Positions 4,156-24,325 of a stretch of 53,849 nt of DNA are shown piece by piece. The stretch lies in contig JAUWYL010000001.1 in the NCBI GenBank assembly GCA_030615855.1, forward strand, positions 1 through 53,849, read 5' to 3'. Below the pieces are notes generated by a model, which was not told where the DNA came from, ran no database searches, and saw nothing but the letters and a program-made list of their open reading frames with translations. The stretch's first letter is position 1, and the number at the start of each line of letters is the position of its first letter. The position numbers and the translations under genes were made by a program. Source of the DNA: a bacterium. GTDB taxonomy: Bacteria > UBP18 > UBA7526.

Positions 4156-4251
4156 TCAATGCAATATTTCTAATTATTTTGAGGTATCGGAACTTCAATA
4201 AGCAAAACAAGGTTCTGACGAAGTCAGGTTCTTATATTGGAGGATATAAGG

Positions 4252-10109: not shown

Positions 10110-11278
10110 GCGTGAGGAAGGAGCAAATAGGCAAAATAATTTTTAGTAAAGTATTGGAGATACCCTTAGCAAAGTATCTCACCTATATTGAGAAAATAAC
10201 AAAGGGATCAATAAAGCCTTTTTCAACCCACAAGTCTGTAAAAAAAAATTATTTTATGCTAAAACAATGATTAAAGATGGAACTCTATGTTTTAAGGTTT
10301 CAGATAAACGTTTAGAAAATATCTATTCGACTCAAAATTGTACTGAGAATAAAATAATATGTTCATTGAAATGGATTAACACCAGAAATAAATTTTCTTT
10401 ACATATTTTAAAAAGCCTCTTCCGTTATCAAAGTAAATATTGGTTTTCTGGCAAAGAGACAGATCTAAAACCTTTGACCTTAAAACAATTCTTATCCTTA
10501 TACCCACTAAAATATCTTGATCAAACTCGACTTTCAAGGTTAATTTCAAATTTATTGGTTATGAATCCTCAAAATCGGGTTATTAATCTTAAAAGTTTAT
10601 TTATATCAAAGAAAAAATATTACTCATACCTTGTTAAAGAATTAGTTAGGGGTAACGAAGATGCCTTGAAAGATAAGGAGATTCAACGCCTATTAGTTCA
10701 AAAAGGAGTACATTTACCCCTTAGAACGATATGTAATTGCAGAAAATTACTTAATATCCCTAACTATAAAGAAAGAACCACTTATTGTTATGAAAAGGAT
10801 ATAACTTTTAGTAATTACATAATGTTATTAAAAAGATATTTAAATAAAATTCCAACTGAAACTGGAACTTATGAATTAAGCATTTCATCAAAAATTAATT
10901 ACCTGAACTACAAAAGTAATGTTATATATATAGGTTCTTCCAAAAATCTGCGAAAGCGGATAACAAACTATTTTGGTAATAAACTAAAAAATAATCGTTT
11001 GAGTAAATTTATCAATAATTACGATGTATTCTTGCGTTTTTGTCTAAACCAAAATTACATCTTAGTAGAAAAAAAGCTCCTTAAGAATTTTAAGAACATT
11101 TATGGAGAGTTACCAAAGGCTAACAGTTTAGGAGGATAATTATGGAAAAGAATCCAGAAAAAACAGGAGAACTTATTTTGCAATTTGATTCAGCAAGAAT
11201 ATTTTTTGCAGAAGAAGAAGAAGAAGAAGAAGCCAGGATTGTTGTATCACTTAAAGACATCACCGAGCGCAAGAAGAT
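9827..11278. mobile_element. AT-rich cassette bounded by an identical 24-bp direct repeat (AGACATCACCGAGCGCAAGAAGAT)
   Basis: Repeat at 9827-9850 and 11255-11278; interior visibly more AT-rich than the flanks; carries a GIY-YIG gene. Confidence 0.5.
10112..11139 (+). CDS. Sigma54 (RpoN) DNA-binding-like domain fused to a GIY-YIG nuclease; main ORF 10267-11139, probable N-terminal extension across an A9 frameshift
   Basis: LKPLTLKQ...RLSRLI...L..D.EI...L..KG..L..RT....R..LNIP...ER (degenerate RpoN box); IP..TGTYEL...VIYIGSSKNLRKRI (GIY-YIG). Confidence 0.7.
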
Positions 11279-13710: not shown

Positions 13711-14136
13711 ATGGAAGGAAAAAAGAGAATCACGAGCTTTAGAAATTTAGAGGTATACCAGAATACTTATAATGCTATGCTAATTGTGATGAAAGAAATT
13801 GTGCCTAAATTACCTGATAACGAAAAATACGATTTAAAGGACCAATCGAGTCGTGCATGTAAAACAATACCAAGATTAATAGCAGAAGGCTATGCTAAAC
13901 GTCATCAAAAAGCAGGCTTTCAAAAATATATCGATGACGCTATGGGTGAATGTAACGAGATGGTTGTTAGTTTAAGTCAGTGTAGAGATATTTATCCTAC
14001 ATATGTAAATGTAAAACGTTGCGATGAGTTAATTGATGTATATGATAAATCAGGAAGACAGCTTTATAAATTAGGTAACGCTTGGACAAATTTTAAAGAC
14101 GATAGACGTAACCGTAAGACGAAACGGGCATCGTAA
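13711..14136 (+). CDS. Four helix bundle protein (23S rRNA IVP-like family)
   Basis: SFRNLEVYQ...LP..EKYDLKDQ..RA...IP..IAEG. Confidence 0.9.
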   Translation: MEGKKRITSFRNLEVYQNTYNAMLIVMKEIVPKLPDNEKYDLKDQSSRACKTIPRLIAEGYAKRHQKAGFQKYIDDAMGECNEMVVSLSQCRDIYPTYVNVKRCDELIDVYDKSGRQLYKLGNAWTNFKDDRRNRKTKRAS

Positions 14137-14180
14137 CCTTAACCGTAAGACGATATTAAAAAATCTGTGATAATCTGTGT
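14107..14180. repeat. Right arms of four-helix-bundle cassette, inverted relative to the left
   Basis: cgtaaccgtaagacgaaacgggcatcgtaaccttaaccg; atctgtgataatctgtgt. Confidence 0.7.
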
Positions 14181-14196
14181 ATAAGGGGCTGAATAT

Positions 14197-14712
14197 ATGG
14201 CTAAGGCGAAGATATTAGTGGTAGATGACGAGGCCTATACCAGGGTCTTTTTTTATGAGTTATTAAAAGAAAAGGGATATAGGATTAGCATTGTAGAGGA
14301 TGGGAGAAGAGCAATTGAGACTGCGAAAAAAGGATCCTTTGATCTCGTTTTTTTGGATGTAAGAATGCCGGACATTGATGGGGTAGAGACCTGCAAAGCA
14401 ATTAAGAAGACCAGCCCTAAGACGATCGTCATTATGATGAGCGGCTACCCGGTTGAAGATGAGGTGAGAGAGGCACTCAAATTAGGTGCCTCTGATTATG
14501 TTGCTAAGCCATTTAATCCAGATGAGATAATGGGTATTACCCAGGTGGCGGAATATCTCAATATCCATAGGATGACCCTTTATGACTTGGTCCGAACGAG
14601 AAAAATTCCGGCCTTCAAGGTGGGCGGTCAGTGGCGCTTCAGAAAGGAGTTACTGGAGAAGTGGATTACTACTGAGACTAAGAGGCGGGAAAAGCGTTCT
14701 AAGAAGAAATAA
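14197..14712 (+). CDS. Response regulator: REC plus excisionase-like HTH_17 domain
   Basis: ILVVDDE, FLDVRMP, KPF; VAEYLNIH..TLY......IPAFKVGGQWRF. Confidence 0.9.
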   Translation: MAKAKILVVDDEAYTRVFFYELLKEKGYRISIVEDGRRAIETAKKGSFDLVFLDVRMPDIDGVETCKAIKKTSPKTIVIMMSGYPVEDEVREALKLGASDYVAKPFNPDEIMGITQVAEYLNIHRMTLYDLVRTRKIPAFKVGGQWRFRKELLEKWITTETKRREKRSKKK

Positions 14713-14752
14713 ATCAAATCGTTTAATTTTACTTAACAATTTATAAAAATAC

Positions 14753-14781
14753 TTGACAAAGCAAAAATAGTGTGGTAGATT
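14753..14781 (+). promoter_or_regulatory. Sigma70 promoter with extended -10 heading the long + strand gene run
   Basis: TTGACA 14753-14758, 17 nt ending TGg, TAGATT 14776-14781. Confidence 0.65.
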
Positions 14782-14821
14782 ATTTTTGTATCCTTAAAAA
14801 TTACGAGGGGAAAGGTTCTTG

Positions 14822-14988
14822 TTTTTTATTGTATCGGAATTTGAATAAATTCAATTCCGACCGCCCCTTACCCTTCGGGTCAAGGAGCGGGACTGCGATA
14901 GGCACTAGACCGATACGAACCCAGCCTCTTTGATAAAAGGGGCTGTCCGAAGGGAGATAGAGCATGAGTGAAACGAGTGCCTATCTGG
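14822..14988 (+). ncRNA. Putative structured cis-acting RNA, copy 1 (family not recognised)
   Basis: Hairpins tcggaa.ttgaa/ttcaa.ttccga, ccgcccctt/aaggagcgg with cUUCGg cap, cagcctcttt/aaaggggctg; long-range gataggcact/agtgcctatc; homologous copy at 22201-22411. Confidence 0.6.
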
Positions 14989-15009
14989 TCTGGATTAGGA
15001 GAAGGGTCA

Positions 15010-15204
15010 ATGGCAGATAAGATAATGACTGTCAAAGAGGTGGCTAAGTATTTAGATATTCATCCCATGACCCTCTATAGGTTAGTTAGAGAAGGAAGGA
15101 TCCCGGCCTTTAAGGTCGGTGGTCAGTGGAGGTTCCAGAAGAGAGCCTTGGACAGATGGGTAGCCCAAAGCATAAATAAAAATTGTACTCCTGAGGGGAA
15201 ATAA
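15010..15204 (+). CDS. Excisionase-like HTH_17 DNA-binding protein
   Basis: MADKIMTVKEVAKYLDIHPMTLYRLVREGRIPAFKVGGQWRF; ATG 15010 preferred over GTG 14968, which lies in the RNA element. Confidence 0.85.
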   Translation: MADKIMTVKEVAKYLDIHPMTLYRLVREGRIPAFKVGGQWRFQKRALDRWVAQSINKNCTPEGK

Positions 15205-16649
15205 TGGTTGAGTTAGCTAATATTTATAAGACAAAGAAAGAGAAAAAAGCCTTTCATCTCGTTTTTTTGGATGTAAGAATGCCGGGCATGGATGGGGTGG
15301 AGACCTGTAGGGCGATAAGGGAGATCGATCCCCGAATAATCATTATTATGATAAGCGCCTATGCGGTAGAGAAAGAGGTGAAGGAGGCTCAGAGGCTGGG
15401 TGCCCTGGACTTTCTCTCCAAGCCCTTTGATGTGAAGAGAATATTCAGTATCGTGGAGAGCGTGCAGAGTAGGAAGGGAATGAAAAGACAGAGGATTTTA
15501 GTGGTGGATGATGAGACCTACACCAGGGTATTCATGAAGGAACTCTTGGAAGGAAAGGGGCATGAGGTTGTCACCGTAGAGGATGGATATAAAGCACTCG
15601 AAGTTCTAAAGGGGGCTGTGACAATAGAGAGAAGGAAAGAGGTGGAGAGAAAGGCCTTAAGTTTTCGGGAAGGGGTCGCCCGGCTGGTGAGGGAGAGGGA
15701 GGAGAGAGAAAAACTCTCCCAGGCCCTCTATGATAAGGCAATAGTAACCGTAAAGAAGGTATTAAAAGAGGCAGAGGAAGGGAATATAGAGAGCGGCCAT
15801 GAGGTTAGCAAGATAGTGGAAGAGATGGTCGATTCCCTCTCTTCAGGAGATAATACCCTGGTCGTCCTGGTAAATAAGAGGACTAGCGAGGAGAACTACC
15901 TCTATACCCACTCAGTAAATGTCGCCATCCTCTCCATTAAGGTCGGTCTAGGATTGGACTATGGGAAGGATAAATTGATTGATTTAGGAGTGAGTGCCTT
16001 CCTCCACGATGTGGGGATGGTGAAGGTCATGGAGATTGCTAAATTACCCAGGAGGTTGACTCCCAGGGAGTATGAGAAGATAAAGAAGCATCCCATATAT
16101 GGGAAAGAGATCTTAGAAAAAGTGAGGGATATCTCAAAGTCAGCCATCCAGACCGCCTATCAGCAGCACGAGAGGCTTAGGGGCCAGGGCTATCCAGAAG
16201 GAATAAGAGCCTGTAAGATAAATGGGTATGCCCAGATCGTGGGCCTGGTGGATGTCTATGAGGCATTGACCCACCCTCGAGTCTATAGGAAGAGGTTCCC
16301 GCCCCATGAGGCCATGAGGATGATTGTTGACTCCTCAAGGGACCTCTTTTCCTTACACATAATAAAGGAATTGATGAGGGAACTGGGCACCTATCCCATA
16401 GGGAGCATAGTGAGATTGGATTCCAGAGAGATCGGGAGGGTCATTGGGGCCAATAAGCGTTTTCCCTTGAGGCCCAGAATACTCATCCTCTTCGACCGGG
16501 ATGGTCAGCGACTGAAGGAGCCCAAGGAGGTCGACTTAGTGAAGAGTGGTCTCCTCCACATAGTAGAGCCCATTGATGAGGAGAAGTTAGAGTCGGAATT
16601 GGGAAGGAGCGATTGGTGGATAAACCTCTGGCGAAGCGTGGGAGAGTGA
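15204..16649 (+). CDS. HD-GYP domain protein with a rearranged (circularly permuted) receiver domain
   Basis: FLDVRMP...KPF precedes ILVVDDE; HSVNVA, HDVG, HP, QHE..RGQGYP, DVYEALT. Confidence 0.85.
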   Translation: MVELANIYKTKKEKKAFHLVFLDVRMPGMDGVETCRAIREIDPRIIIIMISAYAVEKEVKEAQRLGALDFLSKPFDVKRIFSIVESVQSRKGMKRQRILVVDDETYTRVFMKELLEGKGHEVVTVEDGYKALEVLKGAVTIERRKEVERKALSFREGVARLVREREEREKLSQALYDKAIVTVKKVLKEAEEGNIESGHEVSKIVEEMVDSLSSGDNTLVVLVNKRTSEENYLYTHSVNVAILSIKVGLGLDYGKDKLIDLGVSAFLHDVGMVKVMEIAKLPRRLTPREYEKIKKHPIYGKEILEKVRDISKSAIQTAYQQHERLRGQGYPEGIRACKINGYAQIVGLVDVYEALTHPRVYRKRFPPHEAMRMIVDSSRDLFSLHIIKELMRELGTYPIGSIVRLDSREIGRVIGANKRFPLRPRILILFDRDGQRLKEPKEVDLVKSGLLHIVEPIDEEKLESELGRSDWWINLWRSVGE

Positions 16650-16656
16650 GGTAGAC

Positions 16657-16762
16657 GAATAAGGGAAACGGGGAATGGGTGAATCGGAGAAGGGATGAGT
16701 CATGCGTTGTGAGTTAAAACACAGCATGCAGAACACAAAATAAACTGACGAATTGAATAGAA
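16657..16762. repeat. Orphan degenerate short-repeat tracts
   Basis: gaataagg gaaacggg gaatgggt gaatcgga gaaggg 8-mers, then aacacag/catgcag/aacacaa 7-mers. Confidence 0.5.
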
Positions 16763-16775
16763 GGTAGGAGAGATC

Positions 16776-17789
16776 GTGGTGCGGATGGCGGATTACTTCA
16801 AGAAGGCTCGAGGAGAAAAGAAAAAAGTTAAGAAAGAGGAGAAGCCCCCTGAGCCTGGGGTGAGCCTGGCCAAAATAGCCAAGGAGAAAGAGCCGGAAGA
16901 AAGACCAGAGACCATATACGAAGAGGCTCTCTCTTTGATAGAGAGGATATTGAAGGAGGCAGAGGAAGGAAGGATTAAGAGCCATCAGGATATCCCTCCT
17001 CTCATAGGGAAGATGGTCAACTCCCTGTCAAAGGGGAATGATGGCCTGGTTCTCTTGGCGAGCGAGAGGGCCACAGAAGAGAACTACCTCTATGCCCACT
17101 CGGTAAATGTCGCCATCCTCTCCATTGAGGTCGGCCTGGGATTGGGCTATGAGAGGGATAAATTGATTGATTTAGGAGTGAGTGCCTTCCTCCATGACGT
17201 GGGGATGGTGAAGGTCATGGAGATCGCTCAATTACGCAGGAGGTTGACGAAAGAGGAGTATGAAGAGATAAAGAAGCATCCTAAGTACGGGAAAGAGATA
17301 TTAGAAAAGATAAGGGAAATCTCAAAGTCAGCCGTAGAGACCGCCTATCGGCAGCATGAAAGGCTCAGGGGGCAGGGATACCCAGAAGGAGTAAAGGAAG
17401 AAGAGGTACACGAATATGCCCAGATAGTAGGCCTGACAGATGTCTATGAGGCATTAACCCACCCCAGGGTCTATCGCAAGAAAATGCCGCCCCATAAGGC
17501 GCTTGAGATCATTATAGATTATAGCGAGGATTTATTCGCTCCCCAGATGGTGAAGGCCCTTGTGGCTCAACTCTCCCTCTATCCTATTGGGAGCTGGGTG
17601 AGACTCAATACTGGAGAAGTGGGGAGGGTGACAGGAGCCAATAAGGACTCCCCTTCCCGACCAATAATAAATATCATTCTTGGTCCGGATGGTGAGAGAT
17701 TGAAAGAGGCCAAGAGACTGAATCTTCTCCAACATCACTACATATCTATTAAGGAGGCTCTTGATGAGGAAGAATTGGAAGAGAAATAG
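16776..17789 (+). CDS. HD-GYP domain protein, close paralog of the preceding gene
   Basis: Same motifs; long near-identical DNA tracts shared with about 15890-16290. Confidence 0.88.
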   Translation: MVRMADYFKKARGEKKKVKKEEKPPEPGVSLAKIAKEKEPEERPETIYEEALSLIERILKEAEEGRIKSHQDIPPLIGKMVNSLSKGNDGLVLLASERATEENYLYAHSVNVAILSIEVGLGLGYERDKLIDLGVSAFLHDVGMVKVMEIAQLRRRLTKEEYEEIKKHPKYGKEILEKIREISKSAVETAYRQHERLRGQGYPEGVKEEEVHEYAQIVGLTDVYEALTHPRVYRKKMPPHKALEIIIDYSEDLFAPQMVKALVAQLSLYPIGSWVRLNTGEVGRVTGANKDSPSRPIINIILGPDGERLKEAKRLNLLQHHYISIKEALDEEELEEK

Positions 17790-20205
17790 TCTTGCCTTAG
17801 GAATATTGATCCTATGCCTCATGCTTTCCCTTTCCCTCTTTGCCCAGAAGAAAGAGATTCACCTCATTACGATTGAAGTCCAGGATATGAGGGAGAAGGC
17901 CGTAGTCTCCCTGGGTTCTGACGGAAGGTTAGCACACCGTGCCTTTCAGTTAAAGGACCCTCCCAGGCTGCGCCTCTACCTACCAGAGACCATCCTCACC
18001 TGGGAAGAGAAGGAGATATCCTATAAAGCGGGCCTGGTGAAGAGGATAGAGGCCGAGCAGTATAGTGAAAAGCCCCTCATCGTCAAGGTTGATATCTACC
18101 TTGCCTATCCCACCTCCTATGCCATAGAGGTGGATGAAGAATTGCTCACCTTAGAACTCGACAAGAGAGGGATCTTCACCCCAAAGGAACAGGCGAGAGA
18201 GGCTAAAAGATATTATAAAGAGGGGAAACGCCATTATAAGAGGAGAGAGTTTGAGGAGGCCATCTCAGATTTTGAGAAGGCACTGGACTTCGATCCTAAG
18301 TTAGTGAGAGCGGAGAATTATATCCAGAAGGCAAAGAAAGGGATGAGGGAAGAGGAGAGATTAGAGAGGGAGAGGCTTGAGCAATTGAAAGCCCAGGAGA
18401 TAGGGAAAGCAAAGAAGAGAGAAGAGGAGAGAAGAAGGGAGACCATTAAGAAGCACTATACCTTAGGGAAGGCCTTCTATCAGGAAGGGAAGCTCCAGAA
18501 GGCCATCTCCCAGTGGGATAAAGTACTAGCCCTAAATCCGAAACATAAGGGCGCCCTAAAATATAAAAGGAAGGCAGAGGAGGAATTAAAAAAGGTTATT
18601 GCTAAAAGGGAGGAAGAAAAGAGGAAGGGAAGGATAGCCCGTTATTTTGAAGAGGGGAGGACTTACTATGAGAAGGGTGAGTTTCCCCCCGCCCTGGCTT
18701 CCTTCGAAAAAGTACTAAAACTCGATCCCAAGAATAAAAGAGCCCTGGAATACCGAGAGAGGTGCAAGGTAGCATTGGCCAGAGAGGCTGAGAAGAGGAG
18801 GCTTATTGAGGCCCGTCTCCAGGAGAGGGAAGAGGCCTACTTAGATAAGACGCGAGAGGAGTTGGAAAGGAAGAGGAAGATAGAGGAACTGAAGGCTGCC
18901 CGAAAGGAAGCGAGAGAGATAGAAGAAGTGAAGATTGCCCGAAGAGTAGACGAGGCGCTTGGCTTGGAGGTAGAAGAGATAGAGGTGAGGGAACTCCCCA
19001 AGGAGACCCAGGTAATCATCATCCCTACGGGAAGAGTAGTCTATTCCTCCTTTGAATTGAAGGATCCTCCAAGATTGGTCATCGATATCCCGGATACTAT
19101 TTTGAAGTGGGAGAAGAAAGAAATGAAGGTAGAGAAAGGGGCCATTCAGAGGATAAGGTGTGGCCAGTTCCAGGAGGAGCCTCCCATCAGCCGGGTAGTG
19201 ATAGACTTCAAGGAGCCAGGAGTCGAATATCGGGTGGGGAGAGAAGAGGATAAGATCCTGGTAAGCATCGCCAAGCCTGAGGCTGAGAGGGAAGAGGTGA
19301 GGGAGAGGAGAGAGGAGGTTGTTCTTCCTATAAAGCCCAAAAAGCCTGAGGAATATATTATTGGGATTGGCGACCTGTTGGATATTTCTGTCTGGGGGTA
19401 TGATGAATTAGCCAAGGAGGTCACGGTGCGCTCGGATGGCAAGATATCCTTTCCCCTGATTGGGGATGTTCAGGCAAGCGGCCTCACCCCCAGTCGATTA
19501 GATAAGAAGATAACTAAAGGATTGACTCTCTATGTCAAGGAACCCCAGGTGACGGTCATTGTCAAGGAGGTGGCGGCTGTTCGACCAGAGGTGGTGAAGA
19601 AGAATAAGGTCTTCATCCTAGGTCAGGTTAAGAATCCAGGGATATATAGGTTCGCTGAGGAAGTGAGTTTCACTGAGGCCATCACCTTAGCAGGTGGGGT
19701 GACCGAGGCGGCCTCCTTTGAGAAGGTGACGGTTACCACAAAGGAAGGGAAGGTCATCCCTATCAACCTCAATCGATTACTCATCCAGGGGGATAAGAGT
19801 GAGGATATCATGCTTCAGGATGGGGATACCATATACATCGCAGAGGCCAAGAAGGTTCTCATCTTAGGTGAGGTTAAGAACCCTGGAGCCTATAATCTGC
19901 CTGAGAAGAAGATCGGAGTCTTAGGGGGGATCGTTGGCCTGGCAGGTAGCTATACAGAGGATGCGGTATTGAAGACCGTGGCCCTCTTGAGATGGAGCCC
20001 GGATCGTCCCCAGATGATCCTGGTCGATATGAAAAAGATCCTGCGCAAGGGAGAACTCCAGAGGGATATCACCCTGGAGCCCGGGGATATTATCTTTGTT
20101 CCCACAAGGGTTATTGCCAGCATCAATTATGTGATAAGACAGATCATGCCTTCTTTGAGGGCGGCAGAATGGATGGAGGAGTGGAGGAGATGGCCAGCAG
20201 AATAA
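17764..20205 (+). CDS. Polysaccharide export protein (Wza/OPX-like) with AMIN and TPR domains
   Basis: Signal peptide; two F.LKDPPRL AMIN-like repeats; TPR repeats; YIIGIGDLLDISVWG...VRSDGKISFPLIG Poly_export; SLBB repeats. Confidence 0.85.
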   Translation: MRKNWKRNSLALGILILCLMLSLSLFAQKKEIHLITIEVQDMREKAVVSLGSDGRLAHRAFQLKDPPRLRLYLPETILTWEEKEISYKAGLVKRIEAEQYSEKPLIVKVDIYLAYPTSYAIEVDEELLTLELDKRGIFTPKEQAREAKRYYKEGKRHYKRREFEEAISDFEKALDFDPKLVRAENYIQKAKKGMREEERLERERLEQLKAQEIGKAKKREEERRRETIKKHYTLGKAFYQEGKLQKAISQWDKVLALNPKHKGALKYKRKAEEELKKVIAKREEEKRKGRIARYFEEGRTYYEKGEFPPALASFEKVLKLDPKNKRALEYRERCKVALAREAEKRRLIEARLQEREEAYLDKTREELERKRKIEELKAARKEAREIEEVKIARRVDEALGLEVEEIEVRELPKETQVIIIPTGRVVYSSFELKDPPRLVIDIPDTILKWEKKEMKVEKGAIQRIRCGQFQEEPPISRVVIDFKEPGVEYRVGREEDKILVSIAKPEAEREEVRERREEVVLPIKPKKPEEYIIGIGDLLDISVWGYDELAKEVTVRSDGKISFPLIGDVQASGLTPSRLDKKITKGLTLYVKEPQVTVIVKEVAAVRPEVVKKNKVFILGQVKNPGIYRFAEEVSFTEAITLAGGVTEAASFEKVTVTTKEGKVIPINLNRLLIQGDKSEDIMLQDGDTIYIAEAKKVLILGEVKNPGAYNLPEKKIGVLGGIVGLAGSYTEDAVLKTVALLRWSPDRPQMILVDMKKILRKGELQRDITLEPGDIIFVPTRVIASINYVIRQIMPSLRAAEWMEEWRRWPAE

Positions 20206-20234
20206 TCTCTGGGAAGTTTTAAAGGAGAAAAAAG

Positions 20235-22139
20235 ATGCCAAGATATGAGATGAGTTTCTACGATTACTGGAGGATTATCAGGAGGAGGCAGTGGGTCATC
20301 ATCCTATCCTTCATCGCTGTCTTGGGAACGACCATAGCCTTCACCCAGATGCAGATCCCCATCTATCGGGCATCAACGACCATCAAGATTGAGGAGCGCA
20401 AGTCAATGGCTGGCTTGCTTGTTGAATTATTAACCTGGGGCCCGGGGGATACCATGGCCACCTCAGCAGAGATAATCAAGAGTAGACCGATAATGGATGA
20501 GGTAGCTAAGAGGATGGGCCTGGTCACTGAGGCTGCTCCCAAGGAGGAGAGAGATAGGATAGCAAGCAGCCTCCAGGGAGCCGTCTCTGTGAAGAGGGAG
20601 GGAATGACCAATATCCTGCGCATCATGGCTACTACAGACAATCCCCAGAAGGCGATCAGGTTAGCAAACACTACAGTAGAGGCCTTCATCGCCTATAATT
20701 TTGAGGAAAGAAGAAAAGATGCTCGGATGGTGCGGAAGTTCATTGAGGAACAGTTAACAGGGGTGGAGATAAAGTTGAAGAATGCGGAGGAGGCATTGAA
20801 GGCCTTTCGGGAGAAGGGAAAGGGCGCCGGGGTTACTGGTGCCCTGACGGCAAGATTCATTGACCTCCGATTCAAGCTCTCCAGTCTCCTGCGTAGATAT
20901 ACTGAGAAGCATCCCGAGGTGATTAAGATAAAGGAAGAGATGGAAACCCTGGGAAAGGAGCTGAAGCTCGCCCCGGCAGAGGAGATAGAACTCACCAGGA
21001 TTATGAGGGAGGTATCGGCCAATGAGAGCCTCTATCTCATGCTCCAGAAGAAATTCAAGGAGGCCCAGATAAGAGAGGCGGAGAAGGTGGGGACGGTGAG
21101 CATTATCGATCAGGCAGTGGGAGCGAGCCTGGTCAGCCCCAATAAGAAGCTCAACTTCGGAGTGGGAGCAGTTATCGGTCTTATGTTAGGCCTCCTCTTA
21201 GCCTTTGTTACTGAGAGTATAGACACCTCAGTGGGGACCATAGAGGAGGTGGAGGCCTATCTCAAGATCCCGGTCTTAGGGGTCATTCCCCACATCCCGG
21301 AAGCACGGGAGGAGGTCCCCTTCTGGAGGAGGCATCGGGTCAAGGTCAAGGAGAAGGGCACCAGGCTCAGGGAGCAGCTCATCGTCCACTGGAATCCAAA
21401 ATCCACAGTCTCTGAGGCCTATCGGAGCCTCCAGACCAATATCGACTTCACCCGGATGGGGAAGAAGGGGGATACCCTGCTCTTCGTAAGCGCCGAGCCG
21501 AGGGAGGGGAAAACTTTAACCGTCTGTAATTGTGCCGTGGCCTTAGCCCAGATGGGGAAGAAGGTGCTCCTCGTAGAGAGCGACCTGCGCCGTCCGGTAC
21601 TCCATCGCATCTTTGGGCTGAAGAAGGAGCCGGGCCTGACAGACATCCTGATAAAGAAACTCAAGGCACAAGAAGCCATAAGGACTACCACGGATATCAT
21701 ATTGGGTGATCTGAAGATGGAGGAGGTATTGAAGACCCCGGGATTGGATAATCTAAGTGTTCTTACTTCAGGACACCTCCCTCCCAATCCCACAGAACTT
21801 CTGGGCTCTCCAGAGATGAGGGAACTGATAAGCGAATTCAAGACGAAGTATGATGTCATCCTCTTCGATTCCTCCCCCATCCTTCCAGTAACGGATGGCA
21901 CCATATTGGGTGCTCAGGTGGATGGGGTGGTCATGGTCTATCAGGTGGGAAGGGCCGCCCGGGGTGCTCTAAGGAGGGCCAAGGTGCAATTGGATAATGC
22001 CAAGGCCCATATCTTGGGCATTGTTCTTAATGATATCCGGGCAGCGGAGATGCGCCTCGCCCCCCACTACTACTACCGCTACCGATACTATGGAGAGAGA
22101 AAAAGAAGGGGCCTCTTCCGGAGGAGAAAGAAGGGCTAA
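20235..22139 (+). CDS. wzc: Wzc-like polysaccharide co-polymerase / tyrosine autokinase
   Basis: Wzz N-terminus, second TM, SEAYRSL, SAEPREGKT, DLRRP, DSSP, C-terminal Tyr cluster HYYYRYRYY. Confidence 0.9.
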   Translation: MPRYEMSFYDYWRIIRRRQWVIILSFIAVLGTTIAFTQMQIPIYRASTTIKIEERKSMAGLLVELLTWGPGDTMATSAEIIKSRPIMDEVAKRMGLVTEAAPKEERDRIASSLQGAVSVKREGMTNILRIMATTDNPQKAIRLANTTVEAFIAYNFEERRKDARMVRKFIEEQLTGVEIKLKNAEEALKAFREKGKGAGVTGALTARFIDLRFKLSSLLRRYTEKHPEVIKIKEEMETLGKELKLAPAEEIELTRIMREVSANESLYLMLQKKFKEAQIREAEKVGTVSIIDQAVGASLVSPNKKLNFGVGAVIGLMLGLLLAFVTESIDTSVGTIEEVEAYLKIPVLGVIPHIPEAREEVPFWRRHRVKVKEKGTRLREQLIVHWNPKSTVSEAYRSLQTNIDFTRMGKKGDTLLFVSAEPREGKTLTVCNCAVALAQMGKKVLLVESDLRRPVLHRIFGLKKEPGLTDILIKKLKAQEAIRTTTDIILGDLKMEEVLKTPGLDNLSVLTSGHLPPNPTELLGSPEMRELISEFKTKYDVILFDSSPILPVTDGTILGAQVDGVVMVYQVGRAARGALRRAKVQLDNAKAHILGIVLNDIRAAEMRLAPHYYYRYRYYGERKRRGLFRRRKKG

Positions 22140-22206
22140 GTCGCAGGTCGCAGGTCTTTAGGATTTAATATCTGCTCTAGGACCTGGCGACTTTGCGACT
22201 TTTTTT
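22139..22206 (+). terminator. Repeat-derived hairpin followed by a T-tract (terminator-like)
   Basis: agtcgcaggtcgcaggtc ... gacctggcgactttgcgact, then a T run. Confidence 0.45.
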
Positions 22207-22411
22207 ATCGTATCGGAATTTGAATAAATTCAATTCCGACCGCCCCTTGCCCTTTCCCGCAAGGGACCCCGCTAGAGGCGGAGTCCCAACGGGACGCGGC
22301 GGGTCAAGGAGCGGGACTGCAATAGGCACAGAGACGATACGACCCAGCCTCTTTGACAAAAGGGGCTGTCCGAAGGAAGATAGAGCACGAGCAAAGCGAG
22401 TGCCTATCTGG
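22201..22411 (+). ncRNA. Putative structured cis-acting RNA, copy 2, with a three-hairpin insertion
   Basis: Homologous to 14822-14988; UUCG cap replaced by tccc-gcaa-ggga, ccgc-tagag-gcgg and gtccc-aac-gggac. Confidence 0.6.
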
Positions 22412-22426
22412 TTGAGGGGAAAGAGA

Positions 22427-23791
22427 TTGATTAAAGAACCTGGCCAGATAAATATGAGGGCGATACTCTTATTCCTGCTCATCATTCTTCTTGCCCTCTT
22501 CATAGGGAGCAATGTCGTCAAACTTCCTCCCAGGATAATGATCGGCCTGGCCTGTGGGGTAATAATAGGCATCATTACCTTAGTGAGGACGGATATCGCC
22601 TTGGGGATCATAATCTTTAGCATGCTCCTATCCCCAGAATTAGCGGTGGCTGGGGTCCCGGGAAGGGCGGTGGTCATTCGGATAGAGGACTTTTTGCTCA
22701 TTGGGGTCATCTTTACCTGGTTGGCGAAGACAGCCATCAATAAGGAGTTAGGGTTATTGGTCCGCACCCCCTTAAACCTACCCATCATTGCTTATATATC
22801 AGTCTGTGTTCTATTTACTTTGAAAGGAGTGATCATCGGAGATGTGGCCTATCCTAAGAAGAGTCTATTCTATCTTCTGAAGTATAGCGAATACTTCCTC
22901 CTTTACTTCCTAGTAGCGAATAATATCAGAACTAAAAAAGAGGTAAAGAACTTTCTCTTCATCTTTTTAATCGTCTGTTTCATCATCTGCCTCTATGGCT
23001 ACTTCCAGATAGCCCAGGGGGTGACCAGGGTCACCGCTCCCTTTGAGGGACCGAAGGGAGAGCCCAATACCTTAGGGGGGTATCTTCTATTTATGTTCGC
23101 CATTGCTTCTGGCCTCACCCTATATAATCCTTCCCGGATGGGTCGCCGCTGGTCAGGGGCCTTGGCCTGCTTCATGATTCCTCCCTTTCTTTTCACTCTA
23201 TCCCGGGGTTCCTTCTTAGCCTTTCCCTTTATGTTCCTCACCCTTATCCTTCTGACCAGAGAGAAGAGGCTCATCCTCACCATAATATTGGTCTCCCTCC
23301 TCATCCTGAGTCCTATTATCCTTCCTCAGTCAGTAAAGGCGCGTATCGTATCTACCTTTAGAGGAGAGGTGCATACCATCGGACCCTTTCAGGCACCACT
23401 GGCTACCTCTGCCGGAGCGAGGGTGGAGAGCTGGAAGTATGTCTTTAGAATATGGAGGGAGCGACCCCTCTCAGGCTATGGGATCACGGGATTAGGCTTC
23501 ATCGATAGCCAATTTATGCGCACCATTGGGGAACTGGGCCTCATTGGATTACTGGTCTTCATCTGGCTATTGGTAGCCATATTTAGAAGTAGCCTGAGAG
23601 TCTATAGGAGAATTGAGGATCGCTTCTCTCAAGGGTTGACCTTAGGCTTCATCTCTGGCTTCATCGGTCTGGTCATCTTATCGATAACAGCCAATGCCTT
23701 CATCATCGTGCGCATTATGGAGCCCTTCTGGTTTATAGCGGCAATAGTCATGATGCTTCCCAAACTGGGAGAAGAAGAACATTTAGTTTAA
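22427..23791 (+). CDS. O-antigen ligase / Wzy polymerase family protein
   Basis: Many TM helices, EPNTLGGYL, TLSRGS, R...W......P..G.G; start likely TTG 22427 (RBS GAGGGG) or ATG 22454, not 22193. Confidence 0.85.
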   Translation: MIKEPGQINMRAILLFLLIILLALFIGSNVVKLPPRIMIGLACGVIIGIITLVRTDIALGIIIFSMLLSPELAVAGVPGRAVVIRIEDFLLIGVIFTWLAKTAINKELGLLVRTPLNLPIIAYISVCVLFTLKGVIIGDVAYPKKSLFYLLKYSEYFLLYFLVANNIRTKKEVKNFLFIFLIVCFIICLYGYFQIAQGVTRVTAPFEGPKGEPNTLGGYLLFMFAIASGLTLYNPSRMGRRWSGALACFMIPPFLFTLSRGSFLAFPFMFLTLILLTREKRLILTIILVSLLILSPIILPQSVKARIVSTFRGEVHTIGPFQAPLATSAGARVESWKYVFRIWRERPLSGYGITGLGFIDSQFMRTIGELGLIGLLVFIWLLVAIFRSSLRVYRRIEDRFSQGLTLGFISGFIGLVILSITANAFIIVRIMEPFWFIAAIVMMLPKLGEEEHLV

Positions 23792-23923: not shown

Positions 23924-24325
23924 ATGAAAACCACTGAAGACACAGAATACACTGAAGATAAATACCCACATTCTGAACTGACCGATAAGATAATTAAATG
24001 TGCTATTGATGTGCATAAAACTTTGGGTCCCGGCTTTTTAGAAAGCATCTATGAGAATGCCTTAATTTACGAACTCAGGCAACAGGGATTGAAAGTTGAA
24101 GAACAGAAGTTAGTATCCATACCTTACAAAGAAGTTATCGTGGGTGAACATCGCCTGAATTTACTCGTTGAGGACTCAGTAATAGTTGAAAACAAAACCG
24201 TCAAACAATTCGATGAAATCCATCAGGCGCAAATTTTATCTTACCTAAAGGCAACGGACAAAAGGATCGGTCTTTTGATAAACTTTGCCAAAACTAAGAT
24301 AGAGATAAAAAGAATGATTTTATAA
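23924..24325 (+). CDS. GxxExxY protein (cassette 2)
   Basis: LGPGFLESIYE, LLVE..VIVENK, Q..SYLK....GLLINF; N-terminus TTEDTEYTED is encoded by the left repeat arm. Confidence 0.92.
   Translation: MKTTEDTEYTEDKYPHSELTDKIIKCAIDVHKTLGPGFLESIYENALIYELRQQGLKVEEQKLVSIPYKEVIVGEHRLNLLVEDSVIVENKTVKQFDEIHQAQILSYLKATDKRIGLLINFAKTKIEIKRMIL

What the first reader, a model, noticed from the sequence alone, without database searches (positions are those of the whole stretch)
14822..22411. Unrecognised structured RNA present twice: in the operon leader and directly after wzc
Seen: 14822-14988 and 22201-22411 are homologous and share the same stems. The cUUCGg-capped stem in copy 1 is replaced at the same place in copy 2 by a three-hairpin branch (one with a GCAA tetraloop). 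A small stem changes gt-gaa-ac to gc-aaa-gc. Pairings (t/c)gtatcg/cgatacg and ataggcac/gtgcctat cross, which suggests a pseudoknot, and the first competes with the tcggaa/ttccga hairpin, which suggests a switch. Copy 1 follows a sigma70 promoter at the head of about 39 kb of same-strand genes; copy 2 follows a terminator-like hairpin. Established: the Bacillus EAR antitermination RNA is pseudoknotted and lies after the tyrosine-kinase gene of the eps operon. Inference: a new processive-antitermination RNA or riboswitch for polysaccharide operons; the neighbouring HD-GYP genes make a cyclic-dinucleotide ligand worth testing.
Basis: partly seen in the sequence, partly recalled or inferred. Interest (0 to 1): 0.82.

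Follow-up and report, generated by a model that had tools for sequence, protein, structure and literature searches.

The report
Structured mobile repeat, not operon switch
The two look-alike stretches are copies of a roughly 160-base, tightly folded, gene-less repeat that has been inserted at many unrelated places in several groups of tiny-genome bacteria, so it is probably a new kind of small mobile element and not a dedicated switch for the sugar-coat operon.

Summary
Copy 1 (14829-14988) and copy 2 (22208-22411) are homologous: 145 of 159 positions are identical outside a 45-nt hairpin insertion. They share the same stems and match no Rfam 15 family.

The element is not specific to this operon. 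A third copy lies elsewhere in the genome. Relatives occur in records titled Omnitrophota, Patescibacteria and Elusimicrobia, with up to 26 copies in one 1.2-Mb genome. Their neighbours are unrelated genes (rplO/secY, frr, argS, tRNAs).

The fold is under selection. In the 3' domain, 20 of 25 pairs show compensatory changes, and the crossing long-range helix also covaries.

The element also behaves as mobile DNA:
- A sister species has precise empty sites at two of the three positions.
- At the one site with clean edges there is no target duplication, and I saw no terminal inverted repeats.
- 51 distinct left flanks share TATTTTA.
- Its distribution across genomes is patchy.

My best reading (0.6) is a non-autonomous, PATE/REP-like structured repeat that sits in this polysaccharide operon as a passenger. 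The enzyme that moves it was not found. Whether the fold acts as RNA or as single-stranded DNA is unresolved. An antiterminator or riboswitch dedicated to polysaccharide operons is unlikely.

The parts
14753..14781 (+). Sigma-70-like promoter TTGACA-17-TAGATT with an extended TG. It drives the operon leader that now contains copy 1.
   Evidence: 10 of 12 matches, the best of 12 hits. The -35 box is kept in G002 and in the run X3 relative, where the element is absent.
14822..14828 (+). T-rich left flank TTTTTTA directly 5' of copy 1. It matches the family-wide flank consensus TATTTTA and is the likely target motif.
   Evidence: 51 distinct flanks: T at -3 in 49, T at -4 in 38, A at -1 in 37..
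14829..14988 (+). Copy 1 of the element (160 nt), made of P1, P2, P3, the J segment, P4, P5 and P6.
   Evidence: The edges are taken from the precise filled/empty comparison at the third copy.
14829..14859 (+). 5' hairpin module. The P1 5' strand is TTGTATC (14829-14835) and it pairs with GATACGA at 14912-14918. P2 is the hairpin GGAATT..AATTCC (14836-14859). The sequence is almost invariant across phyla.
   Evidence: It forms one continuous hairpin in the minimal relatives L078/L087.
14861..14890 (+). P3, a cUUCGg-capped stem of variable length. It is the site of the 45-nt insertion in copy 2.
   Evidence: Lineage-specific stem sequences are visible.
14897..14905 (+). J segment GATAGGCAC. It is complementary to the 3' strand at 14977-14985, crosses P1 (a pseudoknot) and competes with the P6 5' strand.
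   Evidence: It is absent from the third genomic copy.
14922..14945 (+). P4 hairpin CAGCCTCTTT-GATA-AAAGGGGCTG.
   Evidence: helix 1: 7 of 10 pairs have changes on both sides.
14946..14954 (+). P5 mini-hairpin TCC-GAA-GGG. It is the site of 22- and 40-nt tip insertions in relatives.
   Evidence: helix 2.
14955..14988 (+). P6 hairpin AGATAG..CTATCT with a tandem G-A internal loop, followed by the terminal GG that ends the element.
   Evidence: helices 3 and 4: 12 of 12 pairs have changes on both sides.
22140..22207 (+). Long imperfect hairpin after the wzc-like stop codon, followed by T7-A. It looks like a terminator, and its T-run supplies the TTTTA flank of copy 2.
   Evidence: The scan did not flag it because the loop is longer than 8. 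The same arrangement occurs in G002 (L006).
22208..22411 (+). Copy 2 of the element (204 nt), between the Wzc-like gene and the Wzy_C gene. It is shared with sister species G002.
22255..22299 (+). 45-nt branched insertion at the tip of P3, present in copy 2 only.
   Evidence: G002's orthologous copy lacks it and carries a 40-nt insertion at the P5 tip instead.

Best explanation
Both stretches are copies of a non-autonomous, gene-less, multi-copy mobile repeat of about 155-235 nt. It is most like the protein-less IS200/IS605-type elements (PATEs) or REP/ERIC-type structured intergenic repeats. One strand folds into a conserved architecture. The 5' part is a hairpin (P1/P2) plus a variable stem (P3). 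The 3' part is three abutting hairpins (P4, P5, P6). A segment J can pair with the element's last 8-14 nt in place of the local P6 strand.

The element inserts, or is excised, as a precise unit immediately 3' of a T-rich TATTTTA-like motif. That motif is found in terminator T-runs and AT-rich promoter regions. At the one site with clean edges there is no target duplication, and I saw no terminal inverted repeats on the element.

In this window, copy 1 landed in the 5' leader of the polysaccharide operon. Copy 2 landed on the T-run after the wzc-like gene. Both are co-transcribed passengers. Any effect they have on read-through or mRNA stability is incidental and not a dedicated control.

Shown: multiple copies, spread across phyla, presence/absence at orthologous sites, a conserved flank, and compensatory changes. 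Inferred: the mode of movement (single-strand 'peel-and-paste' by a tyrosine HUH transposase acting in trans, or an unknown enzyme), and whether selection on the fold acts on single-stranded DNA, on RNA, or on both.
For: Copy number and spread:
- G000 holds 3 copies. The 3' domain model R1 matches 4 of the 6 genomes that make up the whole phylum as held.
- An exact pattern found 29 metagenome stretches and 12 genome stretches. By inspection, 27 and 11 of these are true.
- Record titles name Omnitrophota, Patescibacteria and Elusimicrobia.
- Copies per genome are 1, 4, 2, 26 and 11 in five hosts of 1.2-1.4 Mb.

Patchy distribution: 1 of 151, 3 of 151, 2 of 26, 1 of 3 and 2 of 5 genomes in sampled groups.

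Mobility:
- At the third copy's site, G002 (flanks 94-95% identical) reads ...CTTTA|AATATC.... G000 has TCGTATCGG...CCTATCTGG inserted exactly at that bar, with no duplicated flank.
- At copy 1's site, G002 has 43 nt where G000 has 228 nt.
- A contig in run X3 has 64 other letters in place of 14759-15008.

Target: 51 distinct left flanks give the consensus TATTTTA.

Neighbours: 72 flanking ORFs belong to unrelated families. Elements also lie next to tRNA genes.

Fold under selection: 95.9% of cells are paired and 20 of 25 pairs have changes on both sides; 0 of 500 shuffles reach the observed paired percentage or covariation score. Hairpin tips carry insertions.

Shared left end: in G000 the same left-end motif TATCGGAAYTTNAATA heads about 40 other short repeats. 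These sit in tandem at the same hot spot and are also missing from G002.

Pairs are nearly all Watson-Crick: 844 standard, 16 G-U and 11 A-C of 897 cells. With DNA parameters both strands fold about equally well.

PATEs are described as minimal IS200/IS605 elements that lack genes (Meers et al., PMC10055086; passages read).
Against: - No transposase is linked to the element. Y1_Tnp (PF01797) has no match in G000, G001, G002, G004 or G005 (0 of 5 genomes of this phylum searched, 53-94% complete), nor in G061 or G065. It is present in G062, G063 and G064 only.
- No element-like ends flank those Y1 genes.
- No autonomous relative with the same ends was found.
- Only one filled/empty pair has clean edges. 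At copy 1's site the leader has diverged too far to place the edges.
- The internal stems P3-P5 are conserved by compensation, which transposase recognition of the two ends alone does not explain.
- UNCG-type loops (UUCG, UACG, UGCG) are an RNA hallmark (this is recalled knowledge).
- Orientation is not random. The upstream gene is on the same strand in 40 of 52 loci. That fits strand-specific transposition, but it equally fits an element that needs to be transcribed.
- Copy 2 is kept in both G000 and G002.
Confidence: 0.6

Rival explanations
1. The element is a functional, portable RNA module spread by duplication or transfer. The transcript's fold serves the host genes, for example as a 5'/intergenic stabiliser, a processing or punctuation signal, or a binding site for a conserved protein. 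The J/P6 alternative pairing would act as a conformational switch.
For: Covariation is strong, including the long-range helix. Insertions sit only at hairpin tips. Co-orientation with the upstream gene holds in 40 of 52 loci, and many copies lie 5-50 nt before a start codon or a tRNA. One copy sits inside the rplO-secY operon in sense orientation. The cUUCGg caps are RNA-like. The 5' hairpin sequence is almost invariant across phyla, which suggests a protein partner.
Against: Real cases lie between convergent genes or antisense to both neighbours: ZIP/BacA, the FG-GAP gene, frr/M50 and AdoHcyase/LptF-G. Close relatives lack the element at orthologous sites with no sign of replacement. There is no G-U excess over A-C: 16 against 11. 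Distribution is patchy even within orders. No RNA data were available.
Confidence: 0.2
2. The element is a guide-RNA scaffold carried by a protein-less transposon. It would resemble the omega-RNA of TnpB/IscB or the bridge RNA of IS110 elements. The fold ends exactly at the element's right edge, so the flanking DNA would serve as the guide. The T-rich left flank would be the adjacent motif read by a nuclease or recombinase encoded elsewhere.
For: The fold reaches the last nucleotides of the element. Those nucleotides pair with an upstream segment in a pseudoknot-like way. There is a conserved 5-7 nt T-rich flank. Insertion is seamless. PATEs 'often encode omega-RNAs' acted on in trans (Meers et al., passages read). 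That omega-RNAs carry a pseudoknot next to the guide is recalled, not tested.
Against: No TnpB is present. PF07282 gave no match above cut-off and PF01385 gave no match at all in 5 host genomes. IS110 occurs in 1 of 5. None of the 68 ORFs of at least 220 aa called on 21 metagenome and genome loci is a TnpB- or IscB-like protein. No Rfam RNA family matches.
Confidence: 0.08
3. One reading: a processive-antitermination RNA (EAR-like) or a riboswitch, perhaps for a cyclic dinucleotide, dedicated to polysaccharide operons.
For: Copy 1 lies in the leader of about 39 kb of same-strand genes that start with HD_5 genes. Copy 2 follows a terminator-like hairpin after the Wzc-like gene. Several relatives lie in envelope or polysaccharide clusters, for example L046, L052 before a Wzy_C gene, L108 and L118. 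Two mutually exclusive helices exist.
Against: Most copies have no polysaccharide context. The sister species expresses the same operon from the same -35 box without copy 1. Some copies have no downstream gene to control. No expression platform is conserved, and the 3' flanks vary. There is no match to EAR, c-di-GMP or c-di-AMP families in Rfam.
Confidence: 0.03
4. The element is a new self-cleaving ribozyme class. Like twister or hammerhead, such ribozymes are multi-copy and occur in varied contexts.
For: It is multi-copy, occurs in varied contexts, has highly conserved junction nucleotides (ACGACCC, GGAC) and can form a pseudoknot.
Against: It matches no known ribozyme family. Minimal and truncated copies lack P3 and J. 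Nothing identifies a cleavage site. Precise DNA-level gain and loss is not explained by a ribozyme.
Confidence: 0.05

Closest known systems
PATEs: protein-less, non-autonomous IS200/IS605-family elements
   Same: No gene, 150-250 nt, multi-copy. No terminal inverted repeats seen, and no target duplication at the one clean site. Hairpins at both ends. A fixed short motif abuts the left end. The donor site is seamless. There is a strand preference.
   Different: No cognate Y1 transposase or TnpB in this phylum's genomes. No autonomous element shares the ends. The internal fold is far more elaborate and covaries throughout. The right-end hairpin reaches to within 2 nt of the edge.
REP/BIME and ERIC-type structured intergenic repeats
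   Same: Intergenic and often co-transcribed, with a conserved secondary structure. Size variants arise from insertions at fixed internal points. Clusters form with other repeats.
   Different: REPs are much shorter and pair with RAYT genes. ERICs have terminal inverted repeats and TA duplications (both statements are recalled). This family spans several phyla with a nearly invariant 5' hairpin.
EAR (eps-associated RNA) processive antiterminator of Bacillus
   Same: Copy 2 sits after the tyrosine-kinase-type gene of a polysaccharide operon. A pseudoknot-like fold is possible.
   Different: There is no sequence or structure match in Rfam. The family is not tied to eps operons, is multi-copy and is gained and lost between sister species.
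Omega-RNA of TnpB/IscB and bridge RNA of IS110
   Same: About 150-200 nt, structured, and part of a transposon end. The fold abuts the element's edge, and a T-rich adjacent motif is present.
   Different: No partner protein was found in the host genomes searched. A guide function was not tested.

Membership tests
EAR (eps-associated RNA), Rfam | Match to the family covariance model | tested here: not met
   cmscan of the whole window at gathering score gave 0 matches. Both copies at E up to 10 gave only chance hits to unrelated families.
EAR (eps-associated RNA), Rfam | Consistent location inside exopolysaccharide operons across homologues | tested here: not met
   The 72 flanking ORFs of homologues belong to unrelated families. 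tRNA genes are also neighbours.
Riboswitch (including c-di-GMP and c-di-AMP classes) | Match to a known aptamer model | tested here: not met
Riboswitch (including c-di-GMP and c-di-AMP classes) | Always 5' of, and co-oriented with, the genes it controls, with an expression platform | tested here: not met
   The downstream gene is on the same strand in 30 of 49 loci. Convergent cases were confirmed by Pfam. The 3' flanks are not conserved.
Riboswitch (including c-di-GMP and c-di-AMP classes) | Specific ligand binding | not testable with these tools
   Needs in-line probing.
Classical MITE | Terminal inverted repeats | tested here: not met
   The ends TCGTATCGG... and ...CCTATCTGG are not inverted copies of each other (judged by inspection).
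Classical MITE | Target-site duplication | tested here: not met
   One clean filled/empty pair shows TTTA|element|AATATC against TTTA|AATATC. Only this one site could be judged.
Classical MITE | Non-coding, multi-copy, with presence/absence between close relatives | tested here: met
IS200/IS605-type non-autonomous element (PATE) | No inverted-repeat ends, no duplication, seamless empty site | tested here: met
   (one site).
IS200/IS605-type non-autonomous element (PATE) | Conserved short motif abutting the left end | tested here: met
   TATTTTA in 51 distinct flanks, with T at -3 in 49 of 51.
IS200/IS605-type non-autonomous element (PATE) | Hairpins near both ends on one strand | tested here: met
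   P1/P2 at the left end and P6 at the right end.
IS200/IS605-type non-autonomous element (PATE) | A Y1 (HUH) transposase in the same genome to move it in trans | tested here: not met
   PF01797 matched 0 of 5 genomes of the window's phylum. Among the other hosts it matched 3 of 5. The genomes are incomplete (53-94% for those where a figure is given).
IS200/IS605-type non-autonomous element (PATE) | Ends shared with an autonomous or TnpB-bearing element | tested here: not met
   No element-like ends lie beside the Y1 genes. No TnpB was found.
Known self-cleaving ribozyme classes | Match to a family model | tested here: not met
Known self-cleaving ribozyme classes | Self-cleavage | not testable with these tools
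   Needs in-vitro transcription assays.

The most novel reading that the evidence does not exclude
A cross-phylum family of gene-less mobile elements in ultra-small genomes. Its conserved, pseudoknot-capable fold, which ends exactly at the right edge, would be the RNA component (guide or bridge) of a still unidentified RNA-guided nuclease or recombinase. Alternatively it would be a catalytic RNA that drives the element's own precise insertion and excision.
Probability: 0.1. Interest if true: 0.85.

Novelty: new variant of a known kind. Interest (0 to 1): 0.5.

Why it matters
Two things follow if this reading is right.

First, a conspicuous 'riboswitch-like' leader in a polysaccharide operon should not be read as a regulator. 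The same unit sits beside ribosomal, tRNA and metabolic genes in other phyla, and the sister species runs the operon without it.

Second, the element itself is worth a description. It is about 160 nt, has strong compensatory support, matches nothing in Rfam 15, and turned up in none of my four literature searches. It is shared almost unchanged in its 5' hairpin by bacteria filed under different phyla, and it makes up to 26 copies in a 1.2-Mb genome. That points to horizontal spread among subsurface and sediment organisms with tiny genomes, and to a mobilising activity that is not yet identified.

It also offers a clean test case for telling selection on RNA folds apart from selection on single-stranded DNA folds.

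Tried and rejected
I built the 80-position 3' domain model R1 instead. As a result the 5' domain and the pseudoknot were judged on MAFFT alignments, which misalign P3 in the Patescibacteria copies.
- RNA evidence: no RNA holder was listed for window 14000-23000. Only DNA contigs could be laid, so nothing is known about expression or RNA ends.
- Viral contigs: 0 matches to a 5' hairpin pattern and 0 to the 3' domain pattern.
- Partner enzymes, searched in 5 host genomes each. RVT_1 was found only in G064. TnpB Zn-ribbon gave nothing above cut-off. OrfB_IS605 gave nothing. IS110 was found only in G065. Large serine recombinases were found in G000 and G064 only. Y1_Tnp was found in G062, G063 and G064 only. 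None lies beside an element in a telling way. One Y1_Tnp gene lies 7.5 kb from the element on L046, which I judged not informative.
- Promoter reading of the shared motif: I considered whether TATTTTA plus GTATCGGAA is a promoter. I rejected it as a general explanation. In L118 the element lies downstream of a CIRCE operator (I recognised that motif from memory). In copy 1 it lies about 40 nt downstream of the -10 box. The most conserved flank positions do not fit a -10 hexamer. Two loci (L048, L068) do have a TTGACA box placed so that transcription would start at the element.
- Other element types I considered from the sequences and set aside, without a dedicated test. An integron attC reading (GTTAGGC/GCCTAAC in the G064 copies) does not hold in other lineages, and the order of the motifs is reversed. 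Group I and group II intron readings were dropped: no Rfam match, a variable last flank base, and a size that is too small.
- Strand and replication test in G000: 29 of 43 motif-bearing repeats lie on the G-rich, coding-majority strand. That is a bias, but not a decisive one.
- Hairpins upstream: 8 of 51 flanks hold a hairpin of -10 kcal/mol or better, against 4.1% of shuffles. Insertion after terminators is therefore frequent but not the rule.

Full report
**Observation**

The two stretches are real homologues.
- Using edges defined below, copy 1 is 14829-14988 and copy 2 is 22208-22411.
- Outside a 45-nt insertion in copy 2 (22255-22299), 145 of 159 aligned positions are identical.
- Both fold much better than shuffled sequence, with z -5.1 and -5.4 and 0 of 200 shuffles as good.
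- Rfam 15 has no match at gathering score in the window, and only chance hits at E up to 10 around each copy.
- The promoter TTGACA-17-TAGATT (14753-14781) is the best sigma-70-like site in 14000-23000.

**Anatomy**

The shared stems come from RNAalifold on nine copies of this phylum and from wider alignments.
- P1: TCGTATC pairs with GATACGA.
- P2: GGAATTT..AAATTCC.
- P3: a stem of variable length, often capped by UUCG.
- J: a joining segment (C)CAGATAGGCR.
- P4, P5 (YCC-GAA-GGR) and P6 (AGATAG..CTATCT with a tandem G-A loop): three abutting hairpins, followed by the terminal GG.

J is complementary to the same 3' strand that closes P6. The two helices therefore exclude each other, and J-to-tail crosses P1.

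P1 and P2 hardly compete. In minimal relatives they form one continuous hairpin (L078/L087).

**The element is not confined to this operon**

- The genome (1.375 Mb, 45 contigs) holds a third copy after an AdoHcyase gene. That copy lacks J.
- The window's phylum, as held, has only six genomes. The 3' domain model R1 matches four of them.
- An exact pattern built from three conserved blocks found 29 metagenome stretches and 12 genome stretches. By inspection, two and one of these are GC-rich coding false hits.
- The true hits carry titles naming Omnitrophota, Patescibacteria, Elusimicrobia and unclassified bacteria.
- In five such genomes, all 1.2-1.4 Mb, R1 finds 1, 4, 2, 26 and 11 copies.
- Sampling of their groups shows a patchy spread:

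| Group sampled | Genomes with a match |
|---|---|
| Phylum of G062 | 1 of 151 (G062 itself) |
| Phylum of G064 | 3 of 151 |
| Phylum of G065 | 2 of 26 |
| Order of G064 | 1 of 3 |
| Order of G062 | 2 of 5 |

The two samples of 151 genomes were scored with stricter filters.

**The fold is under selection**

On 43 distinct 3' domains aligned to R1:
- 95.9% of cells are paired, against 76.2% in shuffles and 32-49% when partners are slid.
- 20 of 25 pairs show changes on both sides.
- 0 of 500 shuffles reach the observed paired percentage, covariation score or number of compensatory cells.

This alignment is fitted to the model, so it leans towards the structure.

The J-to-tail helix is 84.6% paired, with 3 of 12 pairs changed on both sides (slid: 20-46%). 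Duplex energies run from about -10 to -27 kcal/mol.

P1 and P2 are almost invariant, so covariation says nothing about them.

Insertions of 22-66 nt sit at the P3 and P5 tips and between P2 and P3.

**Context argues against a dedicated regulator**

Pfam on 72 flanking ORFs gives unrelated families. Examples are:
- ribosomal protein L15 and SecY
- RRF and an M50 protease
- ArgRS
- phosphotransacetylase
- penicillin-binding proteins
- ZnuA
- ZIP and BacA
- aminotransferase
- toxin-antitoxin genes

Three copies lie next to tRNA genes.

With a simple greedy ORF call on 53 distinct loci:
- The upstream gene shares the element's strand in 40 of 52.
- The downstream gene shares it in 30 of 49.

Several convergent or antisense cases are confirmed by Pfam.

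**It behaves as mobile DNA**

In G002, the sister species, flanks are 93-95% identical.
- The copy-1 site holds 43 nt where G000 has 228 nt.
- The copy-3 site reads ...CTTTA|AATATC.... G000 carries TCGTATCGG...CCTATCTGG exactly at that bar, with no duplicated flank.
- Three short repeats that share the element's left-end motif sit in tandem a few bases downstream in G000, and are also missing from G002.

A contig in run X3 replaces 14759-15008 with 64 other letters.

Fifty-one distinct left flanks give the consensus TATTTTA.

In G000 the motif TATCGGAAYTTNAATA occurs 44 times with up to 2 mismatches. It heads several families of short hairpin repeats.

**RNA or DNA?**

| Points towards a DNA-level constraint | Points towards RNA |
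|---|---|
| Of 897 paired cells, 844 are Watson-Crick, 16 are G-U and 11 are A-C. There is no wobble excess. | UNCG caps on P3. |
| With DNA parameters both strands fold equally well, -31.0 and -30.4 kcal/mol. | Compensation throughout the internal stems. |
| C-GAA-G mini-hairpins, which I recall as very stable in DNA. | Co-orientation with the upstream gene. |

No RNA run was available. I leave this question open.

**Mechanism**

The best fit is a non-autonomous element of the PATE/REP kind. Meers et al. (PMC10055086, passages read) describe minimal IS200/IS605 elements that lack genes, have an adjacent motif at the left end, and sometimes encode guide RNAs used in trans.

The enzyme is missing here.
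- Y1_Tnp is found in G062, G063 and G064, but in none of five genomes of this phylum.
- No TnpB was found.
- IS110 and reverse transcriptase each occur in one host only.
- No element-like ends flank the Y1 genes.

I therefore commit to 'mobile structured passenger' at 0.6. The single-strand transposition route is an inference inside that reading.

**Literature**

Four searches found no description of this element:
- phylum names with RNA terms
- six sequence strings (which returned only chance hits to a 10-mer)
- CPR, repeat and covariance terms
- PATE terms (which returned general papers)

For these I saw listings and abstracts only, apart from the Meers passages. Supplementary files were not consulted.

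Noticed in passing
window 4160-4236 (motif at 4185); also G000 C25:11400-11600 (L002): G000 carries 44 matches (up to 2 mismatches) to YATCGGAAYTTNAATA. Most head short repeats of about 55-65 nt, built as TTTAAGG + motif + a GC hairpin with a GAA-type loop + TTAT. These often sit in tandem and just upstream of ribosome-binding sites. BLAST with a stretch that included two of them gave 5-35 matches in each of the five sister genomes. They share their left-end motif with the finding's element.
   Followed up: partly
G000 C28:1922 (L004), C7:13841 (L025), C35:127886 (L030), C18:3648, C30:55196 (-), C45:25050 and C45:24036: A second repeated leader occurs in seven copies. It is a perfect hairpin, GYATCGGAATT..AATTCCGATRC, followed by GAGGATTAGGGGGTYTGGGGGAAAGAATCTGC... 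and more GC-rich stems. In L004 it lies ahead of an ORF that I judged NuoB- or hydrogenase-small-subunit-like by eye (no search was run). The three loci scanned (L004, L025, L030) have no Rfam match at gathering score.
   Followed up: partly
G065 loci L091, L094, L097, L099, L103, L109, L111; G378: A diverged variant keeps the P4-P5-P6 domain but lacks the GTATCGG hairpin. The junction reads GGGCTGGG-TTAA-CCCAGCCC, a perfect palindrome that competes with both neighbouring stems. Some copies enclose a possible mini-ORF in the upstream loop. G378 has 10 copies.
   Followed up: no
window 13711-14136 and 23924-24325: Two small genes of families that often occur as stray insertions lie beside the two copies: a 23S rRNA intervening-sequence protein (PF05635) and PDDEXK_3 (PF13366). 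Summed contig depth is raised, and many contigs break, around 14095-14148. This suggests another repeat there.
   Followed up: no
L054, L065, L063, L062/L056, L042 (metagenome contigs): The same element copy appears with left and right flanks recombined in different samples (A-X, A-Y, B-X, B-Z). This could be rearrangement between copies or assembly joins at the repeat.
   Followed up: no
G004 L019/L081, L015/L071, L028; G005 L007: A separate mini-hairpin repeat (TCCCGCACCAGAGCAAAGCTCGATGCGGGA) is nested, sometimes in tandem, inside copies of the element. In G005 it replaces P3 and J.
   Followed up: no
window 10267-11139: A 290-aa ORF scores only the sigma-54 DNA-binding domain (PF04552, E 8e-11). 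It lies among PAS and GAF-histidine-kinase genes upstream of the operon.
   Followed up: no
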